Positions 38,355 through 46,088 of a DNA stretch of 64,000 nucleotides are shown here, one piece after another. The notes under the pieces are model-generated. The model was given only the letters and a program-made list of their open reading frames with translations. It ran no database searches and was not told the DNA's origin. The stretch is from Eubacteriales bacterium (GTDB lineage Bacteria; Bacillota; Clostridia; Oscillospirales; CAG-272). Position numbers and translations under genes: made by a program. How positions within the stretch are numbered: position 1 is the first letter of the stretch; every line of letters begins with the position of its first letter. The DNA lies in the NCBI GenBank assembly GCA_045658965.1, contig JAZOVZ010000086.1:43175-107174 (forward strand). Direction: 5' to 3'.

Positions 38355-40298
38355 TTATTGCAGGTATTCCACGGTGCAGGACACCGAGGTTGAGTCGAAC
38401 GAGTTATGCCCGTTTTTGTTGAGTACGATGGCAATGCGGTCACCGCTTTGCACGTCGATATCGATCGTTTGCTCGTCAACTCGCCCTGTGGGCAAGAAGA
38501 CGTAACCGCCCTCTGCATCCAGAACGTGCTCTCCGTTCAAAAGCAACGCATACTTGACGCCGTCTCCCTCTTCGGAATTGACGCCTATGACAAAGCTGAC
38601 ACACACCTTGCCGCTCTTGGGTGCTTCAAACACCAACGCGCTGTCGTATTCGTCGGGGTGCATCGCGCCGCTCATGATCAGCGTAAAAGTTCCCTCGATC
38701 GCCCAGCGGTTGTTGGCGGTATCAAAGCTCAATTCACCAAACTCACCGCGCTTCTTGTCATAGCTCATATAGAACCAGCCGTCCTTACCCTGCTCTGTAC
38801 TAAAGCTGCTGGGGAAGGAATAGACCGCCAAGGGCTGATCGATCGTCTTGTCGGTCAGATCGTCTATAATGCGGAGCTTAACAAATTCACCCTTGGTTGC
38901 AAGTGCGTAGTAGCGCGTGATGAATACACCGGGCGTGCCCTTGCGCAAATGGTCGGTCAGAGAGATATCCATAGTCAGATCCGTCTTGGTCGTATCGATG
39001 ACCTCGGGGGCGTTGTCGCCCAACCACGTATCGATGAGCTGTTTCCATACCCACTCATATTCGCGGTATTTCTGATCGATCTCCCAGTTGGCAATACTCA
39101 CATAGGTACAGCCTCTGCCATACGCATCCATGCCCTGCTCCAGATAGTTTTCGGGAGTAGCTGCGACCTGAACGGGTCCGTCGATCTCCTGCGCAAGCAT
39201 GACGTGCGGCGGGAAGGTCGCGTGTGCATGGTCCATGGAAAACTCATGATCGGTCAGAGGACCGTCGTCGATCCACACCACGTCGGCATGCTCGGCAAGA
39301 TCGCCTGCAGCCAGCGTGCAACGCAGAAGAGATGCAGTATCGTAGATGCTGCCGAACTGCAGCGCGTACTTGGAATCGGGGCTGATCTGCTTTTGCACAA
39401 TTGCCAGCGAGTCGATCATTTCCTTGAGCTTTTGATGGCGGAACTGATACCAAAGCTGACCGAGATTATCCGATGCCGTGCAGGACGGAGGCTGAATCTG
39501 ATCAAAGGAGGCATATTCCGTACCCAAAACGCAGTTCAAAGCGTCAATATCGGTATATTTTTCCTGCAAGAACGCACGGAACTGTGCTTTTGCAGGATCG
39601 GAATAATCGTATTCCCCTGCGCACCAGTATTCACTCTCGGCAAACTGCGAGAATGCGGGGAGATAGAACAACACGTCCTCTGCATACAAAGCCTCGTACC
39701 GTTCAACAGCCGCCGCATAGAAATTCACAGCGGAGCTGACCGCGCTCTCGGAGCAAAACGAGATCATGGTACGCATACCGTCGATCGAGCCGCCCTGGCA
39801 AAGGTTGCCGTTCGGGTCATACTGCATCTGATCCAAGGGAATGATCTTATCGTCAGCACGGCGGGTCAGGTCGATCGAAATCGCCACCTTAAGCCCCTTA
39901 GTCTTGACAACGTAATTGATCATGTCGTCAAATGCGGCAAAATCGTACTCGCCTGCTTTGGTTGACTCCACGCGACTCCACGGAATGTGCACCTTGATCG
40001 CATTAAAGCCGGTCTTGGCAGCCTCGTCCACGATCTGCTCAAAAGCGTCTTGGGTCATGGGGGTAAAATTCCAGATGCGGTAAACGAAATAGCGTTCTCC
40101 AACGTTGCGCGGCTGATCCATGGGTATTACCTCCTGCGTAGTCTCTTCCCCGGTAGGTTGCCCGGTTTGCGTCTGCACGTTCTGCTCGGGCTGCGTTGTC
40201 TGCTCACTTCCCTGCTCGGGATGCGTTTGGCAGGCAACTGCACCGATCGTCAGTATGCAAAGTAAAAGGCAAAGTGCTCTTGCTCGAAAGTTTCTCAT
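38355..40298 (-). CDS. Secreted lipoprotein, clan GH-A (GH42-like) glycoside hydrolase candidate
   Basis: A lipobox signal peptide (ALCLLLCILTIGAVAC) and a Q/T/E-rich linker are followed by a TIM-barrel-like block, GFNAIKVHIPWSRVESTKAGEYDFAAFDDMINYVVKTKGLKV...FRAFLQEKYTDIDALNCVLGTEYASFDQI, which is reminiscent of GH42 N-terminal domains. I chose ATG-40298 (RBS AAGAGG); the ORF-track start at 40304 is a GTG. Confidence 0.5.
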   Translation of the reverse strand: MRNFRARALCLLLCILTIGAVACQTHPEQGSEQTTQPEQNVQTQTGQPTGEETTQEVIPMDQPRNVGERYFVYRIWNFTPMTQDAFEQIVDEAAKTGFNAIKVHIPWSRVESTKAGEYDFAAFDDMINYVVKTKGLKVAISIDLTRRADDKIIPLDQMQYDPNGNLCQGGSIDGMRTMISFCSESAVSSAVNFYAAAVERYEALYAEDVLFYLPAFSQFAESEYWCAGEYDYSDPAKAQFRAFLQEKYTDIDALNCVLGTEYASFDQIQPPSCTASDNLGQLWYQFRHQKLKEMIDSLAIVQKQISPDSKYALQFGSIYDTASLLRCTLAAGDLAEHADVVWIDDGPLTDHEFSMDHAHATFPPHVMLAQEIDGPVQVAATPENYLEQGMDAYGRGCTYVSIANWEIDQKYREYEWVWKQLIDTWLGDNAPEVIDTTKTDLTMDISLTDHLRKGTPGVFITRYYALATKGEFVKLRIIDDLTDKTIDQPLAVYSFPSSFSTEQGKDGWFYMSYDKKRGEFGELSFDTANNRWAIEGTFTLIMSGAMHPDEYDSALVFEAPKSGKVCVSFVIGVNSEEGDGVKYALLLNGEHVLDAEGGYVFLPTGRVDEQTIDIDVQSGDRIAIVLNKNGHNSFDSTSVSCTVEYLQ

Positions 40299-40313
40299 GC
40301 GCACCTCTTATTA

Positions 40314-41261
40314 TCAGTAAAAAGTTGCTACTTCTTGTGTGGGCTTGGTGGCAAATTCGGTCTTTTCCGCGTAAAGCACGGGACCGGGTCTGCCGTAAAG
40401 CTTATGCTTTTCGATCTTGATCTTGGCGGTCACGACAGTCCAATCACGGGTCTTGAAGTTGGTTGCCGTCGGGAAATAGCAGACGAGTGCGTTATATGCA
40501 ATATCGTCTGCGCAGCAGGTCATAACGTGTCTGCCGATGACAAGTCCGTTCTTGCCAAGCGCGCGGTCACGCGCCACGATGCCCTTGAAGCGTACCGTCT
40601 TGCCGTCGTACTTTTCGGTATCCTCGGCAAGATCGCGGTACCAAACGGCATAGTCCTCATCCTTGACGTCAATGACAGGTGCATCAATATCAAAGGGCAG
40701 CGGATCCTCGATCTCATCGTATTCCACGTGTCCGTCGGGATAATCGTAGGTGATGGACGCGCGCGTGCTTACGCTGCGCACAACGCGGTGGATCTCCTCT
40801 TTATCAATGACCTCGGGCGTGCGGTTGAGCACGATCATTTCGCAATCCTGCAGCTTATCCACCATAAGCTGACGCATGTTTGCGTTATAGGTCAAAAAGG
40901 TTTTTGCGTCCGCAAACATCATGTTCTGGAAAATAAACCAGTCTGCGGGCAATGCGGCATACAGCTTGGAGAGCAGCCACATGCCATTATATTCGATGAT
41001 CACGCGGTCGATCTTGTGCTTTTTGTAAAGTAGGGTCAGATAGTCGCGCGTCAGCATTTCGGGATCGTCAAGCAGCTCAAGGTAAACGTTCTTGCCCCAG
41101 AAGCGGTCAAGATCCAGCTCCTCAATGCCCTCTTCGCACATGATCAGCAGCGTTTTTTCACCCGAATTGAAGCGCTGATCCTCCATGGACTCCTGAATGA
41201 TGTGCGTTTTGCCCCCTTCCAGGAAGCCCGTGAAGACGTATACGGGAATTTTGTTAGCCAT
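40314..41261 (-). CDS. Divergent G3E (CobW-like) P-loop protein fused to a CCADD-motif C-terminal domain
   Basis: The N-terminus IPVYVFTGFLEGGKTHII is a Walker A in CobW context. However, the CxCC motif is absent (LIMCEEGIEE replaces ENEFGE..GCICC) and NKxD is degenerate (VLNRTPE). The C-terminus VRFKGIVARD...VIGRHVMTCCADDIAY...DWTVVTAKI resembles the C-terminal domain of DUF1980/TIGR03943-type proteins; this is from memory, not from a search. Confidence 0.55.
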   Translation of the reverse strand: MANKIPVYVFTGFLEGGKTHIIQESMEDQRFNSGEKTLLIMCEEGIEELDLDRFWGKNVYLELLDDPEMLTRDYLTLLYKKHKIDRVIIEYNGMWLLSKLYAALPADWFIFQNMMFADAKTFLTYNANMRQLMVDKLQDCEMIVLNRTPEVIDKEEIHRVVRSVSTRASITYDYPDGHVEYDEIEDPLPFDIDAPVIDVKDEDYAVWYRDLAEDTEKYDGKTVRFKGIVARDRALGKNGLVIGRHVMTCCADDIAYNALVCYFPTATNFKTRDWTVVTAKIKIEKHKLYGRPGPVLYAEKTEFATKPTQEVATFY

Positions 41262-41392
41262 AGTAATCTCCTTGCCGCCTATGGCGGCTAAAATAGTTTT
41301 GAAATCTTATCTGAAAATGGGCTGTGCCCCATTTTCAAGTAAGATTTATGCGTGAACACCAGCCTAAACGAAAGGAGGTGTGAAAATTCACG
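41262..41392 (-). promoter_or_regulatory. Conserved structured intercistronic element, copy 1 of 2
   Basis: This 131-nt spacer runs from the TAG stop to the ATG. With 44712..44843 it shares, read on the minus strand, the blocks TAGCGTGAA, TTCACGC, TAAATCT, AAAATGGG-6nt-CCCATTTT, AAAACT and GGAGATTA. It contains nested hairpins. Confidence 0.6.
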
Positions 41393-42628
41393 CTATCCCT
41401 CCGACTTATGCAATGCTACACCCAGCAGCTCACCGATGGCATCAATGTTCAGATTCGAGCCGATAACGCACAGTCTGCCGATGATGCCTGCAGCACCCGT
41501 ACGAATGTCGGGCTCACCGGGAACGTAGTCAAAGTGGATCCAGCTGCCGTCGTCCCCTGCTACGATGCCCTTTGCACGCAGTACGATGCCGAATTTGCCC
41601 TCATCGCAAAGCTCGTCAAGCTGCTCAGCAAGCAGTTTTGCATTGAACTTAGCCGTGGTTTCTGCGCCTGCGCTGATGAATACCTCGTCTGCATGGTGGT
41701 GATGGTGATGACCGCCGCAGCCGCAGCTGCAGGTCTCGTCATGCTCGTGATGATGGTGATGTTCGTGCTCATGCTCATGCTCATGCTCGTGCTCATGATC
41801 ATGGCAGCCGCACTCGCAGTGCTCATCATGATCGTGATGATGGTGATGTTCGTGCTCGTGCTCATGGTCATGGCAACCGCACTCGCAATGGTCGTCATGG
41901 TCATGATGATGGTGATGCTCATGCTCATGCTCATGATCATGCTCATGGCAACCGCACTCGCAGTGCTCGTCATGATCGTGATCATGGTGATGGTGGTGCG
42001 CATGCTCCAATCTTTCAAGCTCAGCCTGTAAAGTGTCCTTGCGCTCCATGGCTTCCAGCAGCTGCTCTGCGCTCAGAATATCCCAATCGGTCGTGACGAT
42101 GGTTGCGGTAGTATTGTGCTCACGCAGCATTGCAACGCACTCGGAAATCTTCTTTTCGCTTGCAGTACCGGTATGAGAAAGCACGATACAGCCTGCGTTG
42201 GCAACCTGATCGTTGAAAAACTCGCCGAAGTTTTTCATGTACATCTTGCACTTGCCTGCATCCACAACGGTAGTGAATGCATTAAGCTCTGCGCCCTCTA
42301 CGTGCAGATTCTGCACCGCTCTGATCACGTCGGACAGCTTGCCGACACCCGAGGGCTCGATCAGAATTCTGTCGGGTGCGTACTGCTCCAGCACCTGCGT
42401 CAGCGCCTTACCAAAGTCGCCAACCAAGGAGCAGCAAATGCAGCCCGAATTCATTTCGTTGATCTGAATGCCTGCCTCTGCAAGAAAGCCGCCATCAATG
42501 CCGATCTCACCGAATTCGTTTTCGATCAGCACCAGCTTCTCTCCCTTGTAAGCCTGCTCGATCATCTTCTTGATCAGCGTGGTCTTACCCGCGCCCAAAA
42601 ATCCGGAAAAAATATCTATCTTAGTCAT
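41393..42628 (-). CDS. COG0523/CobW-family G3E GTPase (putative metallochaperone) with giant His/Cys-rich insert
   Basis: Walker A FSGFLGAGKTTLI, ENEFGEIGID, the canonical metal motif NSGCICCSL, and IEPSGVGK. A 104-aa His/Cys array is followed by a CobW_C-like C-terminus (FGIVLRAKGIV...WIHFDYVPGE). The start is 6 nt after the upstream stop. Confidence 0.85.
   Translation of the reverse strand: MTKIDIFSGFLGAGKTTLIKKMIEQAYKGEKLVLIENEFGEIGIDGGFLAEAGIQINEMNSGCICCSLVGDFGKALTQVLEQYAPDRILIEPSGVGKLSDVIRAVQNLHVEGAELNAFTTVVDAGKCKMYMKNFGEFFNDQVANAGCIVLSHTGTASEKKISECVAMLREHNTTATIVTTDWDILSAEQLLEAMERKDTLQAELERLEHAHHHHHDHDHDEHCECGCHEHDHEHEHEHHHHHDHDDHCECGCHDHEHEHEHHHHHDHDEHCECGCHDHEHEHEHEHEHEHHHHHEHDETCSCGCGGHHHHHHADEVFISAGAETTAKFNAKLLAEQLDELCDEGKFGIVLRAKGIVAGDDGSWIHFDYVPGEPDIRTGAAGIIGRLCVIGSNLNIDAIGELLGVALHKSEG
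41693..42004 (-). repeat. In-frame tandem repeat encoding the His/Cys array
   Basis: ATGGCArCCGCACTCGCArTG recurs at 41801, 41870 and 41945 (69- and 75-bp periods). It encodes 3 units HHHHHDHD(E/D)HCECGCH(D/E)H(E/D)HEHEH plus a 4th degenerate unit (ETCSCGCGGHHHHHH). Confidence 0.9.
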
Positions 42629-42634
42629 GTTATC

Positions 42635-44323
42635 TTAATCCTTTTTCTTAGTGCCTCTGTATACGTAGTTGAGTCTGCCCAGAGGTGCGGCATCACCCTT
42701 ATCGTAAAAGTCCTCAATGCTTGTCAGCTCTTCGGTGCTGTCCGCGACCTTGAACCAAACGGTAAAGTCGTCCTTGTCAAGACCAATGACCGCGCGAGGT
42801 GCGATCACCAGCAGCATATTGCCCTGGCAGCGGTACACGATATCACCGAAATCAGCGGCACGCAAGCCATCCACAATGACACCAACCGTACTGGTGCGGT
42901 CATCCACGGGCTTGTTGTTGAGCACGTACTGATATTCCTTACCGCCATCGGTATTGAGGTAAATTCTCAGCCAGGTACCCGTTCCGTCATAAGGCTTGAC
43001 GTCTCCCTTGGTCACGATGCCGAAATAGATGAAATCGTCGTCGTGGCTGACGGTCACGCCCGTGATGGCATTGCGCTGGGTGTGATTTTCATATACGGTG
43101 CCATATCCCTTTGCTTCTCTTGCAAAATCACCGTCCGAGAAGTTGTGGTACTCTGCCCAGATCTCCTCTGCCTCGTCCTGCTCGGAATCGTTGTTGTAAT
43201 CCACGGGCACAAGCTCGGCAAAGCTGTCGTATTCATCCACGCCCTTATACTTGCGAACGTAATCGACAAGCTGCATAAAGTAGTTATCAAAGTAGCCGCC
43301 GCGCATCATTTCAAGGTCACGGCTATATTCGTAGTTGGCACAGTCCACGAACATGATGGGTCTGTGCGGAAAGCCCTTCCATCTGCCTGCGATCCATTCA
43401 TTCCAGCCCGTGACAAGCACGATGGGCGGATCGGTTTCGATGGCGCGCTCAAACTGCTCGGCAAAATTATAGCCGTGGAGATACGCATCGGGATCGGGGT
43501 CGTTGTGCATATCGTGGAAACCGCGACCGTTGTTATCGGTCTCGCCATACATCACAGAGTCGCCAAAGCGCAGCTGCGGATGCTGGGCAACGGATACGTT
43601 GATGACCTCGTCCTCACCCTTGAGATTGGCAAACACGCGCTGCGGACGGGTAAAGTCCATCCAAGGCCAGCCGCCAAGCTTATCGGGCTCATTGGGCCAC
43701 TGCGACATTTTAATGTTAAAGAACTCTCTGCATTCGGCAGAGCACTCCTCCTCTATCGCGATGATAACAGGCTTGCCCTCAAAGTAGAACCACGTATCGG
43801 GGCAATATTTTGCCGCATAGATCTTGTCGTAGATCTCCTGCACGGTCTTGCCCGAGTGGGTATTGGTATAGAACATCACCTTGGGGATCTTCCAGCCGTC
43901 CTTGGCGTATTCGTCCAGCACGCGCATGACGAGCTTGACGTTATGCTCGTAAATGCAGGCATTGGTGGTATCAAAGAACAAAAAGTCAATGTCTGCCTGG
44001 ATCAGCAGCTTCATGTGACGGCGCACGACCCACTCGTCATCCGAGTAGTAGTAGCCGTAGAAGGGTTCACCCCAATGGTGATAGGTGCCGATCTTGCCCC
44101 AGTATTCCGCATCCACGTGCTCTCCCGCATCGGGGTGCTCTGCCGTGATCTTGGAAATATCGTAAGGCTTATGTCTGCCGTGCTCACCCAACCACAGGAA
44201 ATAGAACATACCCACAAGGCGGCCTTCTCTGCGCGCGGGGGCGTTTTCGCGGTCTGCGGTCTTTCTGCCCAGCGCGTCGGTTGCCATCAAGGGGCCGTTG
44301 GCGTAATTCTTATACTGTTCCAT
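42635..44323 (-). CDS. Cytoplasmic hypothetical protein, possible GH99/WbsX-like glycoside-hydrolase fold
   Basis: 562 aa with no signal peptide. Blocks FYFLWLGEHG, TYHHWGEPFYGYYYSDDEWVVRRHMKLLIQADIDFLFFDTTN and VTGWNEWIAGRW resemble TIM-barrel GH99-like/WbsX-like families. This is a weak, by-eye call. The C-terminal ~150 aa look beta-rich. Confidence 0.35.
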   Translation of the reverse strand: MEQYKNYANGPLMATDALGRKTADRENAPARREGRLVGMFYFLWLGEHGRHKPYDISKITAEHPDAGEHVDAEYWGKIGTYHHWGEPFYGYYYSDDEWVVRRHMKLLIQADIDFLFFDTTNACIYEHNVKLVMRVLDEYAKDGWKIPKVMFYTNTHSGKTVQEIYDKIYAAKYCPDTWFYFEGKPVIIAIEEECSAECREFFNIKMSQWPNEPDKLGGWPWMDFTRPQRVFANLKGEDEVINVSVAQHPQLRFGDSVMYGETDNNGRGFHDMHNDPDPDAYLHGYNFAEQFERAIETDPPIVLVTGWNEWIAGRWKGFPHRPIMFVDCANYEYSRDLEMMRGGYFDNYFMQLVDYVRKYKGVDEYDSFAELVPVDYNNDSEQDEAEEIWAEYHNFSDGDFAREAKGYGTVYENHTQRNAITGVTVSHDDDFIYFGIVTKGDVKPYDGTGTWLRIYLNTDGGKEYQYVLNNKPVDDRTSTVGVIVDGLRAADFGDIVYRCQGNMLLVIAPRAVIGLDKDDFTVWFKVADSTEELTSIEDFYDKGDAAPLGRLNYVYRGTKKKD

Positions 44324-44354
44324 GATAACACTCCTTTACCTGTATTTGTTGTAA

Positions 44355-44711
44355 TTATTCAACGTAAGAGGTTACGATGATATCTGCGCCCGTACCAAGC
44401 AGGTTAGCAATGACCACGTCACCCTGCTTGACGGTAACGGGGGCTATGCAAGCGTTGATCTCCTTCATGCAATCAAACAGCAGCTCCTTGGGGACTGCCT
44501 TATTGGACTTGACGGCAACCACTTCACCGCTCTCGGTCATAACAGTGGTCGTCAGCGTTCTCGTGGGTGCGGTGCATTCCGCAACGGCATAATCCGTGCC
44601 GCGCTTGCAAGCGTTGCCCTTAACGCTCAGCACCTTTTTGTCCTCCAACTCCACGGTCAGCGTGCAGCCGCGGGGACAAATGATACAAGTCATTTCTCTT
44701 TTATTTTCCAT
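44355..44711 (-). CDS. DUF1667 domain protein (third member of the glpA-like trio)
   Basis: MTCIICPRGCTLTVE...VKGNACKRGTDYAVAE is the CxxCPxGC...C cysteine pattern typical of DUF1667. I chose ATG-44711, which follows GGAGATTATT; the ORF-track ATG-44723 lacks spacing to an SD. Confidence 0.75.
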   Translation of the reverse strand: MENKREMTCIICPRGCTLTVELEDKKVLSVKGNACKRGTDYAVAECTAPTRTLTTTVMTESGEVVAVKSNKAVPKELLFDCMKEINACIAPVTVKQGDVVIANLLGTGADIIVTSYVE

Positions 44712-44843
44712 AATAATCTCCATTCCACAAAGTTTTAAAATTTCACCGTGGAGCTTTGCTCCAAAAATGGGTTGGGTCCCATTTTTAGGTGAGATTTAAG
44801 CGTGAATCGTAAAGTTATCAGATGGGTTGCGTGCGCTTTCACG
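44712..44843 (-). promoter_or_regulatory. Conserved structured intercistronic element, copy 2 of 2
   Basis: This 132-nt spacer runs from the TAG stop (44844-44846) to ATG-44711. It has the same block order as 41262..41392. The invariant stem GCGTGAA:TTCACGC encloses 31 nt here, versus 30 nt in copy 1. Confidence 0.6.
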
Positions 44844-46088
44844 CTATTCCTCCAATCCAATGGTTATAGTGCCCTCTGCCAGCTCGGCAAGCACCTGGGC
44901 GGTCAGCTTGACCGTCTCCATCTCACCGGGGGCGAGCTTGATCTTCTTTTTATTCGAAATGACGCGATCACCGCACTTGACCACGACTCGCTTGTCGCGG
45001 AACACGTCGGCAACGCGGAAATAAACGGTGGTGTCCTGTGCGCTGGTGATCTTCTGCGGTACGGTATAGCGTACGCCGCCTACGGGCTGCAAGGTAATAT
45101 CCACGCGCTCGCTTTGCTTGTTAGCCAGATAATCGGCAGCAGCGCAGCCGGCGATCTCTGCTTCCTCGGATACGTAGTCCACAAGGTCGTGCACGTGCAG
45201 CACGTTACCGCATGCAAACACACCGGGAATAGAGGTCTGTCTGCTCTGGTCGGTCACGGCGCCGCCCGTAATTCTGTCCATGGTAATGCCTGCGCCCTTG
45301 GTCAGCTCGTTTTCGGGCAGCAGACCGCAGGAAAGCAGCAGCGTGTCGCACGCGATATACTGCTCGGTCTCCTTGATGGGATTGCGTCTCTCATCCACCT
45401 TGGCAATGGTCACGCCCGTGACTCTGTCCTTACCGTGGATCTGTACGACGGTGTGCGACAGCATCAGCGGAATGCCGAAATCATTCAGACACTGCTCGAT
45501 GTTACGCGCCAGACCGCCCGAATAAGGCATCAGCTCGCAAACTGCCTTGACCTTTGCACCCTCCAGCGTCATGCGGCGTGCCATGATCAGACCGATATCG
45601 CCCGAGCCGAGGATAACGACCTCTTTACCGGGCATATAGCCCTTGATATTAACGTATTTCTGTGCAGTACCCGCGGTATAGATACCCGAGGGACGTGCAC
45701 CTGCGATATTCAGCGCACCCTTGGGACGCTCGCGGCAACCCATGGCGAGAATGATCGCCTCTGCTTGAATATGCATAATACCGTCGGTGGGATTGACTGC
45801 GGTGATCACCTTATCCTCGGTGATGCCGGTCACCATAGTGCCCACCTTATAAGGAATGCCCAGCTCCTTGACCTGCTCGGCATAGCGAGCGGCATACTCG
45901 GGGCCTGTCAGCTCCTCACCGAATTTGTGAAGACCGAAGCCGTTATGAATGCACTGGCGCAGAATACCGCCCAGGTGCGCTTCACGCTCCAGGATCAGCA
46001 GATCGGTTACGCCTGCCTTATATGCGGCAACTGCCGCGCTCATGCCTGCGGGGCCGCCGCCGACGATTACAAGAGAAACCTTACGCAT
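44844..46088 (-). CDS. FAD/NAD(P)-dependent pyridine nucleotide-disulfide-type oxidoreductase
   Basis: I set the start at ATG-46088 (MRKVSLVIVGGGPAGMSAAVAAYKAG). A second dinucleotide motif is VVILGSGDIGLIMA. It overlaps the upstream stop by 8 nt (ATGCGTAA). Confidence 0.8.
   Translation of the reverse strand: MRKVSLVIVGGGPAGMSAAVAAYKAGVTDLLILEREAHLGGILRQCIHNGFGLHKFGEELTGPEYAARYAEQVKELGIPYKVGTMVTGITEDKVITAVNPTDGIMHIQAEAIILAMGCRERPKGALNIAGARPSGIYTAGTAQKYVNIKGYMPGKEVVILGSGDIGLIMARRMTLEGAKVKAVCELMPYSGGLARNIEQCLNDFGIPLMLSHTVVQIHGKDRVTGVTIAKVDERRNPIKETEQYIACDTLLLSCGLLPENELTKGAGITMDRITGGAVTDQSRQTSIPGVFACGNVLHVHDLVDYVSEEAEIAGCAAADYLANKQSERVDITLQPVGGVRYTVPQKITSAQDTTVYFRVADVFRDKRVVVKCGDRVISNKKKIKLAPGEMETVKLTAQVLAELAEGTITIGLEE

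What the first reader, a model, noticed from the sequence alone, without database searches (positions are those of the whole stretch)
40314..41261. Degenerate G3E paralogue fused to a CCADD-motif domain, paired with the canonical COG0523 GTPase
The protein keeps a Walker A in CobW context (TGFLEGGKT). It has lost the CxCC metal site, and its NKxD guanine-specificity motif is degenerate (LNRTPE). Its C-terminal 120 aa (VRFKGIVARD...GRHVMTCCADDIAY...DWTVVTAKIKIE) resemble the C-terminal domain I associate with DUF1980/TIGR03943 proteins, which are normally membrane-anchored partners of a permease. A soluble fusion of that domain to a G3E-like NTPase, immediately downstream of a hyper-His COG0523 gene, suggests a two-component metal-handling pair (donor plus adaptor). 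I have not seen such a pair described.
Basis: partly seen in the sequence, partly recalled or inferred. Interest (0 to 1): 0.6.

Follow-up and report, generated by a model that had tools for sequence, protein, structure and literature searches.

The report
Paired metal-chaperone NTPases from a transporter
This gene encodes a soluble protein that joins a cysteine-motif-less relative of metal-chaperone GTPases to a small cysteine-bearing barrel domain normally tethered to a membrane permease. It is almost always encoded right after a histidine-rich metal chaperone in gut Clostridia, which points to an undescribed two-protein metal-handling unit derived from a metal transporter operon.

Summary
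The ORF at 40314-41261 (-) encodes a 315-aa protein with a G3E/CobW-type P-loop domain and a DUF1980_C domain. The P-loop domain matches Pfam cobW at 29.8 bits and YjiA at profile E 1.6e-11. The DUF1980_C domain scores 75 bits, and AF2 plus Foldseek show it is an OB-fold. CxCC lies in a deletion, and the G4 Asp is not conserved. The P-loop, switch-I E-x-G, Walker-B E-x-N-G and an "NR" are nearly invariant across 66 diverse members, so the protein is probably an active NTPase and not a decayed one.

The His-rich COG0523 gene lies directly upstream in every testable locus (76/76 genome loci, median gap 11 bp) and in 3 of 4 members at 30-38% identity.

New here: the N-domain belongs to a distinct CxCC-less clade. 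In other Clostridia this clade is standalone or fused to an ArsP_1 permease, within COG0523-NTPase-ArsP_1-DUF1980 cassettes that sometimes sit beside ZnuA, CDF or ZinT genes. The window's pair looks like a permease-less derivative in which the NTPase became fused to the OB domain and the COG0523 gained a His/Cys-rich linker.

No paper in the searchable library describes this. The function is inferred to be cytosolic NTP-driven handling of zinc or another thiophilic metal, and it is untested. I rate it a new variant of a known kind, interest about 0.6.

The parts
40314..41261 (-). Gene for the 315-aa fusion protein (CxCC-less G3E NTPase domain plus DUF1980_C OB-fold domain), stop codon included
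   Evidence: ORF. Pfam and NCBIfam. AF2 model mean pLDDT 95.9, pTM 0.83. About 300 clusters at 50% identity share the full-length architecture.
40737..41261 (-). N-terminal G3E-type P-loop NTPase domain (residues 1-175) without a CxCC motif
   Evidence: Pfam cobW 29.8 bits. YjiA profile match E 1.6e-11, with CxCC lying in a deletion. Foldseek top hits are YjiA, HypB and UreG. It clusters with standalone and permease-fused NTPases, apart from COG0523.
41205..41231 (-). Walker A / P-loop TGFLEGGKT (residues 11-19)
   Evidence: G12, G17 and K18 are invariant and T19 is present in 64/66 diverse members.
41118..41138 (-). Switch-I-like CEEGIEE (residues 42-48), equivalent to COG0523 ENEFGE. Cys42 is mostly specific to the fused type.
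   Evidence: E43 and G45 are present in 66/66 and C42 in 57/66. Type-A NTPases have D, L or Q at this position, except L109.
40977..41000 (-). Walker B / switch II IIEYNGMW (residues 88-95)
   Evidence: E90 66/66, N92 65/66, G93 61/66, W95 62/66. It aligns with YjiA IECTGM.
40812..40829 (-). G4 position LNRTPE (residues 145-150): N and R are kept, the guanine-specifying Asp is lost
   Evidence: N146 64/66 and R147 65/66, position 149 variable. It aligns with YjiA LTKTD.
40317..40709 (-). Linker helix plus OB-fold DUF1980_C domain (residues 185-315)
   Evidence: Pfam PF21537 75 bits. The domain-only AF2 model has pLDDT 95.7. The best Foldseek PDB hits are the AsnRS/AspRS anticodon-binding OB domain, Ten1 and SSB.
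40503..40535 (-). GRHVMTCCADD (residues 243-253): conserved R-x-x-M-x-C-C-x-x-D signature of DUF1980_C, the candidate thiolate metal site
   Evidence: R244 66/66, M247 62, C249 65, C250 64, D253 65. The same motif occurs in membrane-anchored TIGR03943 proteins, e.g. ARYIMVCCAAD.
41262..41392 (-). 131-nt structured intergenic spacer between the two genes, a lineage-specific insertion
   Evidence: Hairpin MFE -47.6 kcal/mol, z -6.65. It is absent from the closest relative L004, where the gap is 1 bp. No Rfam match.
41393..42628 (-). Partner gene: 411-aa COG0523 protein (P-loop GFLGAGKTT, ENEFGE, CICC, IEPSGVG, G4 LSHTG, His/Cys-rich linker, CobW_C-like domain with RAKG)
   Evidence: Pfam cobW 128 bits, CobW_C 21 bits. 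YjiA E 1.5e-18. Motif coordinates. It lies directly upstream of the fusion gene in 76/76 testable genome loci.
42431..42442 (-). CICC (CxCC) metal-binding motif of the partner (residues 63-66)
   Evidence: Invariant in 77 partner orthologues. Coordinates.
41681..42043 (-). His/Cys/acidic-rich linker of the partner (residues 196-316; 51 His, 12 Cys), encoded partly by a 69-nt tandem repeat at 41759-42007
   Evidence: Such linkers are specific to partners of the fused type: median 36 His in type B against 0-4 His in type A.
41567..41578 (-). RAKG (RxKG) motif in the partner's C-terminal domain (residues 351-354)
   Evidence: R.KG is present in all type-A partners examined. RxKG is reported as a cis/trans arginine finger of COG0523 CTDs (PMC13001444).

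Best explanation
The 315-aa protein and the His-rich COG0523 protein encoded just upstream form a conserved two-gene cytosolic metal-handling module. I propose it descends from a four-gene metal-transport cassette: COG0523, a CxCC-less G3E NTPase, an ArsP_1 permease, and a membrane-anchored DUF1980 protein. Loss of the permease and of the DUF1980 membrane anchor fused the NTPase directly to the DUF1980 OB-fold domain.

Shown:
- The domain architecture.
- The retention of the catalytic NTPase motifs.
- The loss of CxCC and of the guanine-specifying Asp.
- The conserved Cys-Cys-Asp signature on an OB fold.
- The near-obligate synteny and tight spacing with the COG0523 gene.
- The existence of the permease-containing cassettes, with the same two paralogous NTPase lineages.

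Inferred:
- The fusion protein hydrolyses NTP, probably without guanine specificity.
- Its OB domain binds a thiophilic divalent metal through C249/C250/D253 (+M247). Zn(II) is most likely; Co, Ni or Cu are not excluded.
- It acts as a hetero-oligomer with the COG0523. The COG0523 holds metal at CxCC and in its His/Cys-rich reservoir. Nucleotide hydrolysis in one or both G-domains would drive metal hand-over between the two proteins or on to clients.
For: Architecture and motifs.

Synteny: a COG0523 G-domain lies immediately upstream on the same strand in all 76 genome loci with at least 1 kb of upstream sequence. The same holds in the cultured Vescimonas fastidiosa, in members at 30-38% identity (P0259, P0216, P0178), and in nearly all type-B metagenome loci. 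The median gap is 11 bp, with nine overlaps among 77 pairs. No third gene is conserved nearby.

Origin:
- The C. butyricum 'permease' is a cobW-like NTPase fused to ArsP_1 and lies next to a TIGR03943 gene.
- Its NTPase domain matches the fusion-family profile at hhalign probability 99.4%, E 1e-21.
- L091 has ZnuA, COG0523, standalone NTPase, ArsP_1 and DUF1980 in a row.
- Ten of 14 type-A loci carry the COG0523 directly upstream of the NTPase.
- An NJ tree separates a CxCC/RxKG COG0523 clade from a CxCC-less NTPase clade, and each clade contains both types.

Metal link:
- The partner has CxCC and a His/Cys-rich linker.
- ZnuA and CbiMNQO lie next to L091.
- A CDF transporter lies next to L100.
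- A ZnuA-type ABC transporter and ZinT flank the Priestia permease/TIGR03943 pairs, whose loop 2 reads DHDHDHNGDCSCGHSHE.
- Zur boxes bound in EMSA lie upstream of a B. anthracis ArsP_1 permease (PMC6336718).
- ArsP-family relatives are curated as Cu/Zn efflux transporters with a conserved CxC motif.
Against: No experiment bears on this protein or on any DUF1980 domain, and the substrate of ScfAB/YcgRQ/SMU.746-747 is unknown (PMC5584981).

I found no Zur/Fur-type operator upstream of the pair. A FUR-family gene is nearby in only 3 loci.

Many permease/TIGR03943 pairs (Listeria, Enterococcus) have no metal-related neighbours and no NTPase.

By the positive-inside rule, the OB domain of the membrane-anchored proteins lies outside the cell (7/7 sequences). 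Its role there may therefore not carry over to a cytosolic fusion.

One distant member (P0234) has no adjacent COG0523.

Physical interaction between the two proteins, nucleotide hydrolysis and metal binding were not testable here. I could not inspect model coordinates.

I could not check whether these genomes encode an ArsP_1 permease elsewhere.
Confidence: 0.5

Rival explanations
1. The fusion protein is still a transporter accessory. It would dock on the cytoplasmic face of an ArsP_1-type (or other) permease encoded elsewhere in the genome. It would replace the membrane-anchored DUF1980 subunit and couple NTP hydrolysis and the COG0523 chaperone to metal import or export.
For: The same NTPase clade is fused to or adjacent to ArsP_1 permeases. 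DUF1980_C is otherwise always a permease partner.
Against: No ArsP_1 gene lies within +-10 kb in 80 genome loci or in the 64-kb window. None is listed on the 861-kb Vescimonas replicon that carries the pair. The canonical OB domain is predicted to be extracytoplasmic, so a cytosolic copy could not occupy the same site. The His-rich linker expansion is seen only in the permease-less type, which suggests a shift towards soluble storage or buffering.
Confidence: 0.2
2. The N-domain is a catalytically dead pseudo-NTPase. The protein would be only a passive adaptor or metal-buffer subunit for the COG0523 GTPase, which is the first reader's 'degenerate paralogue' reading.
For: The Pfam cobW score is weak (29.8 bits). 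CxCC and the CobW_C/RxKG domain are lost and G4 is altered.
Against: G12, G17, K18, E43, G45 and E90 are invariant, and T19, N92, G93, N146 and R147 are at least 92% conserved, across members down to 30% identity. That pattern is typical of a working nucleotide site. The partner's G4 is equally non-canonical.
Confidence: 0.1
3. The system handles a non-zinc thiophilic substrate, such as copper, cobalt or nickel, or an organometalloid. ArsP-family permeases export organoarsenicals and SO_0444 relatives export Cu/Zn. The pair would then be a detoxification or sequestration device, not a nutritional chaperone.
For: The M-x-C-C-x-x-D signature and W274 resemble soft-metal sites. The ArsP family is classed as an organoarsenical exporter, and its relatives as Cu/Zn efflux transporters with a CxC motif. 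CbiMNQO lies next to L091. The partner has His/Cys repeats like nickel-storage proteins.
Against: The ZnuA, ZinT and CDF neighbours and the Zur-box EMSA point to zinc. No ars, cop or mer genes were seen in any locus examined.
Confidence: 0.12
4. The OB domain binds nucleic acid, and the protein is an RNA- or ribosome-associated NTPase unrelated to metals.
For: The best structural matches are tRNA anticodon-binding and ssDNA-binding OB folds. A canonical TIGR03943 protein hits Pfam tRNA_anti-like weakly. R244, K221, Y218 and W274 are conserved.
Against: The TM-scores are modest (about 0.45-0.5). The conserved signature is Cys-Cys-Asp, and it is shared with membrane-anchored, probably extracytoplasmic domains that partner permeases. 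The obligate partner is a CxCC metallochaperone.
Confidence: 0.04

Closest known systems
COG0523 metallochaperone GTPases (E. coli YjiA/YeiR, A. baumannii ZigA/MigC, B. subtilis ZagA/YciC, CobW, Nha3, eukaryotic ZNG1)
   Same: Same G3E P-loop fold and motif order: GxLGxGKT, E-x-G switch I, hhhE-x-x-G Walker B. YjiA is the best sequence and structure match. The gene is linked to metal-related genes and is encoded next to a true COG0523 protein.
   Different: It lacks the CxCC motif that the literature treats as universal in COG0523 (PMC2770081). It lacks the CobW_C domain and its invariant RxKG arginine finger (PMC13001444) and has an OB-fold domain in that place. G4 is N-R-x-x. It forms its own clade apart from COG0523.
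TIGR03943 / DUF1980 proteins with their ArsP_1 (DUF318) permease partners: GAS ScfAB, S. mutans SMU.746-747, B. subtilis YcgRQ
   Same: It shares the C-terminal DUF1980_C domain with the R-x-x-M-x-C-C-x-x-D signature. The fusion's N-domain clade occurs in the same cassettes as these permeases.
   Different: It has no DUF1980_N transmembrane anchor and no adjacent permease. It is soluble and cytosolic, whereas the canonical domain is predicted to face outward. The known systems have phenotypes (acid tolerance, biofilm, virulence) but no known substrate.
HypB and UreG (G3E nickel-insertion GTPases) with their partners HypA/SlyD and UreE/F/D
   Same: They are G3E NTPases that work in multi-protein metal-delivery complexes. 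Some HypB proteins have His-rich stretches. They are among the top structural matches.
   Different: HypB and UreG are homodimers with a metal site at the G-domain interface, and they serve defined enzymes. Here two different G3E paralogues are paired, no client enzyme is encoded nearby, and the putative metal site of one partner sits on an appended OB domain.
SO_0444-family Cu/Zn efflux transporters and ArsP organoarsenical exporters (ArsP_1 superfamily)
   Same: They belong to the same permease superfamily as the permeases found in type-A cassettes, and they have conserved CxC motifs for thiophilic substrates.
   Different: They are not known to use G3E NTPase or DUF1980 subunits. The window's pair has no permease at all.

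Membership tests
G3E P-loop NTPase superfamily (Pfam cobW PF02492: CobW/HypB/UreG nucleotide-binding domain) | Sequence match above the Pfam gathering score, and the SIMIBI/G3E fold | tested here: met
   29.8 bits against a cutoff of 20.7. The family profile hits YjiA at E 1.6e-11. The Foldseek top hits are YjiA, HypB and UreG.
G3E P-loop NTPase superfamily | Walker A GxxxxGK[ST], a switch-I acidic residue plus Gly, and a Walker B Glu followed by x-x-G | tested here: met
   G12, G17, K18, E43, G45 and E90 are invariant. T19, N92 and G93 are at least 92% conserved in 66 members.
COG0523 subfamily | CxCC metal-binding motif between switch I and Walker B | tested here: not met
   There is no CxCC. 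YjiA's GCICCS falls in a ~10-residue deletion of the family. The only conserved N-domain Cys is C42. All 14 type-A NTPases also lack it.
COG0523 subfamily | C-terminal CobW_C domain carrying the invariant RxKG motif | tested here: not met
   There is no CobW_C hit, and the C-domain is DUF1980_C with an OB fold. VRFKG at 223-227 is not conserved in the family: R224 occurs in 16/66 and K226 in 34/66.
COG0523 subfamily | G4 [NT]KxD guanine-specificity motif | tested here: not met
   The window protein has N-R-T-P. N and R are conserved, and Asp is present in only 17/66.
TIGR03943 / DUF1980 putative permease subunit | DUF1980_C domain with the R..M.CC..D signature | tested here: met
   PF21537 scores 75 bits. 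R244, M247, C249, C250 and D253 are each conserved in at least 62 of 66 members, and the same motif occurs in canonical proteins.
TIGR03943 / DUF1980 putative permease subunit | NCBIfam whole-protein score above the curated cutoff | tested here: not met
   83.8 bits against a cutoff of 88.8, and only model positions 97-219 of 221 are matched.
TIGR03943 / DUF1980 putative permease subunit | N-terminal DUF1980 transmembrane region (PF09323) | tested here: not met
   There is no PF09323 hit, and the N-terminus is a P-loop domain starting at residue 6. Canonical proteins have three TM-like segments.
TIGR03943 / DUF1980 putative permease subunit | Encoded next to an ArsP_1 (PF03773) permease | tested here: not met
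   There is no ArsP_1 match in the window or within +-10 kb in 80 loci.
CxCC-less, ArsP_1/DUF1980-linked G3E NTPase clade (defined here, not a curated family) | The G-domain groups with standalone or permease-fused NTPases and not with COG0523, and is encoded directly after a COG0523 gene with an LS[RH]T G4 and an RxKG CTD | tested here: met
   hhalign probability 99.4%, E 1e-21 to the C. butyricum permease N-domain. NJ tree. Gene order. Caveat: the tree is a simple BLOSUM62 neighbour-joining tree without support values.

The most novel reading that the evidence does not exclude
The pair would be a heteromeric G3E machine of a kind not yet described.

The CxCC-less NTPase would bind metal at a composite site. 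That site would be built from Cys42 in its switch-I loop and from Cys249, Cys250 and Asp253 of the appended OB domain, so that NTP hydrolysis directly opens or closes it.

Its missing arginine finger would be supplied either in trans by the RxKG C-terminal domain of the COG0523 partner, or in cis by the invariant Arg244 of the OB domain.

This would give bacteria a permease-derived, self-contained metal store-and-release device. It would also identify the first obligate protein partner of a bacterial COG0523 subfamily, and it would imply that the enigmatic ScfAB/YcgRQ/SMU.746-747 permeases are thiophilic-metal transporters.
Probability: 0.15. Interest if true: 0.8.

Novelty: new variant of a known kind. 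Interest (0 to 1): 0.6.

Why it matters
Bacterial COG0523 proteins are widely assumed to be zinc metallochaperones, yet a 2024 review states that no client is known for any Zur-regulated bacterial member (PMC11672702).

Here a whole COG0523 subfamily has a near-obligate, co-transcribed protein partner. A clear evolutionary trail leads from that pair back to a permease cassette. This offers a concrete two-protein system in which hetero-oligomerisation, trans-activation of hydrolysis and metal hand-over can be tested directly.

The same trail ties the DUF1980/ArsP_1 permeases (ScfAB in group A Streptococcus, SMU.746-747 in S. mutans, YcgRQ in B. subtilis) to metal-chaperone NTPases and zinc-acquisition genes. 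These permeases have virulence and stress phenotypes but no known substrate, so the link suggests what they transport.

The pair is very common in gut Oscillospirales. The pair may therefore matter for metal economy in the gut microbiome.

Tried and rejected
1. RxKG in the fusion. VRFKG (223-227) looks like the COG0523 arginine-finger motif, but it is not conserved in the family. I rejected it as coincidence.
2. Zur/Fur regulation. A FUR gene lies near the pair in L001-L003, but in only 3 of about 80 loci. K-mer and palindrome enrichment upstream of 67-75 partner genes found only sigma-70-like promoter elements. There is no evidence of a shared operator.
3. A conserved third gene. Clustering of neighbours found none. 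The next most frequent cluster (15 loci) is a generic ABC ATPase at variable distance.
4. A single-sequence PDB search gave nothing, so a profile was needed.
5. The first locus search with the 66-sequence alignment failed because no block was conserved enough. It worked with 12 closer sequences.
7. A word-indexed search with the C. butyricum N-domain returned only 8 proteins. The metagenome scan was needed to see the clade.
8. Riboswitch or known RNA in 40000-45000. The only hit was a spurious sub-threshold miRNA match inside the His-codon repeat.
9. The 131-nt spacer as a repeated mobile element. It is unique in the window and absent from 174 loci.
10. An AlphaFold complex of the two proteins was not attempted. 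The tool takes single chains and returns no inter-chain or coordinate information, so the result could not have been evaluated.
11. Whether genomes with the pair hold an ArsP_1 permease elsewhere could not be settled.
Full report
**1. The observation**

The ORF at 40314..41261 (minus strand) is real. It is 315 aa long, starts at an ATG and has AAGGAG seven nucleotides upstream. An identical protein is already in NCBI/ENA, and near-identical entries are named only "GTPase [Clostridia bacterium]".

- TGFLEGGKT at residues 11-19.
- No CxCC.
- LNRTPE at residues 145-150.
- GRHVMTCCADD at residues 243-253.

Pfam gives cobW PF02492 for residues 6-167 (29.8 bits, gathering 20.7) and DUF1980_C PF21537 for residues 194-309 (75 bits, E 5e-21). 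NCBIfam TIGR03943 matches only through its C-terminal half (83.8 bits, cutoff 88.8).

The gene upstream (41393..42628, minus) is a COG0523 protein. It has CICC, a 121-aa linker with 51 His and 12 Cys, and a CobW_C-like domain carrying RAKG.

**2. Family and conservation**

The exhaustive search of 50%-identity representatives gave 2389 hits at E <= 1e-3 and 306 at E <= 1e-30. Full-length members of 310-320 aa reach down to about 30% identity.

In an alignment of 66 such members, the following are invariant or at least 92% conserved:
- P-loop: G12, G17, K18, T19.
- A switch-I-like C-E-E-G: E43 and G45 invariant, C42 in 57/66.
- Walker B: I-E-Y-N-G-M-W.
- An N146-R147 pair.

The residue at the position of the G4 Asp is variable. 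A profile of the family matches E. coli YjiA at E 1.6e-11 across residues 3-171. YjiA's GCICCS falls in a roughly 10-residue deletion, and f-N-R-c-e aligns with L-T-K-T-D.

So the domain is a G3E NTPase that has kept its catalytic apparatus. It has lost the COG0523 metal motif and the guanine-specifying Asp. "Degenerate" is therefore the wrong word.

In the C-domain, R244 is invariant. M247, C249, C250, D253 and W274 are each conserved in at least 62 of 66 members.

**3. Structure**

AlphaFold2 with this alignment gives a very confident two-domain model (mean pLDDT 95.9, pTM 0.83). The C-domain modelled alone is equally confident (pLDDT 95.7).

Foldseek against the PDB matches the N-domain to YjiA, HypB and UreG. 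It matches the C-domain to OB folds: the AsnRS/AspRS anticodon-binding domain, Ten1 and SSB, with TM-scores of about 0.45-0.5. DUF1980_C is therefore a helix followed by a five-stranded OB barrel. It is unrelated to CobW_C, and no solved structure of it exists. A canonical TIGR03943 protein also hits Pfam tRNA_anti-like weakly, which fits an OB fold.

**4. Co-occurrence with the COG0523 gene**

The partner's G-domain is found immediately upstream on the same strand in all 76 loci that have at least 1 kb of upstream sequence. The other seven loci sit at contig edges. Further findings:
- Across 77 pairs the median gap is 11 bp, with nine overlaps. The window's 131 bp is an outlier.
- No third gene is conserved.
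- The pair is also present in the cultured Vescimonas fastidiosa MM35, annotated "CobW family GTP-binding protein" plus "GTP-binding protein".
- Of four distant members tested (30-38% identity), three have the same His-rich COG0523 upstream and one (P0234) does not.

The partner family is itself unusual. Its G4 reads LS[HR]T-x where YjiA has LTKTD.

**5. Where the pair comes from**

This is the main new result.

A tblastn control with a canonical C. butyricum permease/TIGR03943 pair showed that the 537-aa "permease" carries an N-terminal NTPase domain. Pfam confirms cobW (52 bits) plus ArsP_1 (200 bits). That domain matches the fusion-family profile at hhalign probability 99.4%, E 1e-21, and it also lacks CxCC.

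One contig (L091) has, in a row, ZnuA, COG0523, a standalone 192-aa CxCC-less NTPase, ArsP_1 and DUF1980, with CbiMNQO just upstream. Its COG0523 is 53% identical to the window partner's G-domain and shares the LSRT G4 and RxKG.

A metagenome scan seeded with the standalone NTPases returned 80 loci, which fall into two types:
- **Type A:** [COG0523]-NTPase-ArsP_1-DUF1980. The NTPase is either standalone (L100-L106, L109) or fused to the permease in one ORF (L090, L096-L098). COG0523 lies directly upstream in 10 of 14 such loci.
- **Type B:** COG0523 followed by the NTPase::DUF1980_C fusion, as in the window.

A neighbour-joining tree separates a COG0523 clade from a CxCC-less NTPase clade. Every examined member of the COG0523 clade has CICC, and all type-A partners have R.KG. 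Each clade contains both type-A and type-B members.

Given the gene order, the simplest origin of type B is a deletion that removed ArsP_1 and the DUF1980 membrane anchor. This is an inference. The tree is simple and carries no support values.

Type-B partners have His-rich linkers (median 93 aa and 36 His). Type-A partners have short linkers with 0-4 His and no Cys.

**6. Which substrate**

The evidence points to thiophilic metals, with zinc first:
- The partner has CxCC and a His/Cys reservoir.
- ZnuA lies next to L091 and L092.
- A CDF transporter lies next to L100.
- In Priestia plasmids, permease/TIGR03943 pairs lie between a ZnuA-type ABC transporter and ZinT. One of these proteins has the loop DHDHDHNGDCSCGHSHE.
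- A B. anthracis ArsP_1 permease has Zur boxes that are bound in EMSA (PMC6336718).
- ArsP-family relatives include curated Cu/Zn efflux transporters with a conserved CxC motif.

Against this, the Listeria and Enterococcus pairs have no metal neighbours. I also found no shared operator upstream of type-B pairs.

**7. An unresolved point**

All seven canonical DUF1980 proteins examined have three TM-like segments, with a K/R-rich N-terminus and a K/R-rich loop 2. The positive-inside rule therefore places their OB domain outside the cell. The window's protein has no signal or TM segment and starts with a P-loop, so its OB domain is cytosolic.

Either the topology prediction is wrong, or the fusion moved the domain to a new compartment and gave it a new role. 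This limits how far function can be transferred from the canonical systems.

**8. Mechanism proposed**

*Shown:* the architecture, motif conservation, synteny, and the link to permease cassettes.

*Inferred:*
- The fusion protein is an active NTPase of relaxed base specificity.
- Its OB domain binds Zn(II) or another soft divalent metal through Cys249, Cys250 and Asp253, possibly with Met247 and Cys42.
- It forms a hetero-oligomer with the COG0523, which binds metal at CxCC and in its His/Cys linker.
- Nucleotide hydrolysis drives transfer.

A 2026 preprint shows that COG0523 C-terminal domains supply an RxKG arginine finger that also works in trans (PMC13001444). The fusion protein lacks such a domain, so trans-activation by the partner is a testable idea.

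Rival explanations are given with their evidence in the structured fields: a soluble accessory of a distal permease, a dead adaptor, another substrate, or nucleic-acid binding.

**9. Comparison with known families and novelty**

The protein is a member of the G3E superfamily. It fails three defining features of COG0523: CxCC, CobW_C/RxKG and NKxD. It has the DUF1980_C domain but fails three features of TIGR03943: the membrane anchor, the adjacent permease and the curated score.

Searches of the paper library found no description of the fusion, of the CxCC-less clade, or of a COG0523 link to these permeases. The terms were DUF1980, TIGR03943, COG3689/COG0701/UPF0703/SMU.747, ycgQ, DUF318/SO_0444/ArsP_1, and COG0523 with sequence similarity networks. 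The library is incomplete, so this is absence of evidence in what could be searched. Databases call the protein only "GTPase" or "GTP-binding protein".

I rate it a new variant of a known kind, with moderate to high interest (0.6).

Noticed in passing
window 41262-41392: The 131-nt spacer between the two genes is an insertion relative to the closest relative (L004, gap 1 bp). It folds into a long hairpin (MFE -47.6 kcal/mol, z -6.65). It is unique in the window, absent from all 174 fetched loci, and has no Rfam match. It might uncouple or differentially stabilise the two halves of the transcript.
   Followed up: partly
window 41759-42007 (within 41681-42043): A 69-nt tandem repeat (3.5 copies) encodes the HCECGCH(D/E)HEHEHEHHHHHDHD repeats of the partner. 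Linker length varies from 30 to 150 aa among orthologues, so the repeat is evolutionarily unstable. It also creates long spurious ORFs on both strands (41408-42031 +, 41560-42018 -) and a spurious sub-threshold miRNA hit.
   Followed up: partly
window 40000-44600; 42629-42634: No sigma-70-like promoter is predicted in this stretch (0 found against 4.1 expected). The partner gene starts 6 nt after a GH99-like gene (42635-44323), and a GH42-like lipoprotein gene (38355-40304) follows the fusion gene. In this lineage the cassette appears to be embedded in a glycoside-hydrolase transcription unit, whereas most other loci have their own TTGAC...TATAAT promoter.
   Followed up: partly
window 42167-42181 and 40812-40829: Both members of the pair lack the guanine-specifying Asp of the G4 motif. 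The partner has LSHTG and the fusion has LNRTPE, where YjiA has LTKTD. The partner family reads LS[HR]T-x throughout. Both may be ATPases or non-specific NTPases and not strict GTPases.
   Followed up: partly
L090:3844-5457; L096:2497-4116; L097:6956-8614; L098:6971-8611: In the Clostridium butyricum group, the CxCC-less NTPase domain and the ArsP_1 permease form a single ORF of 536-538 aa, annotated only as 'permease' in RefSeq (WP_071981825.1). These four loci have no COG0523 gene nearby.
   Followed up: yes
L093:5455-6306 (Priestia megaterium plasmid): This canonical TIGR03943 protein has a His/Cys-rich cytoplasmic-type loop (DHDHDHNGDCSCGHSHE) between TM2 and TM3, and it has H-C in place of the C-C of the OB-domain signature. 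Two permease/TIGR03943 pairs lie there between a ZnuA-type ABC transporter and ZinT.
   Followed up: partly
L001:5992-6660: In one lineage a FUR-family gene lies upstream and divergent from the pair, separated from it by a probable tRNA gene read by eye (not checked with ARAGORN). The FUR gene has a palindrome (TAGAATAATTCTA) in front of its own start. This arrangement was seen in only 3 loci.
   Followed up: partly
L085/L086:6001-6933: A distant family member (P0234, 34% identity) has no adjacent COG0523. It sits after WYL-domain and D12 methyltransferase genes, showing that the pairing is not absolute across the whole family.
   Followed up: no
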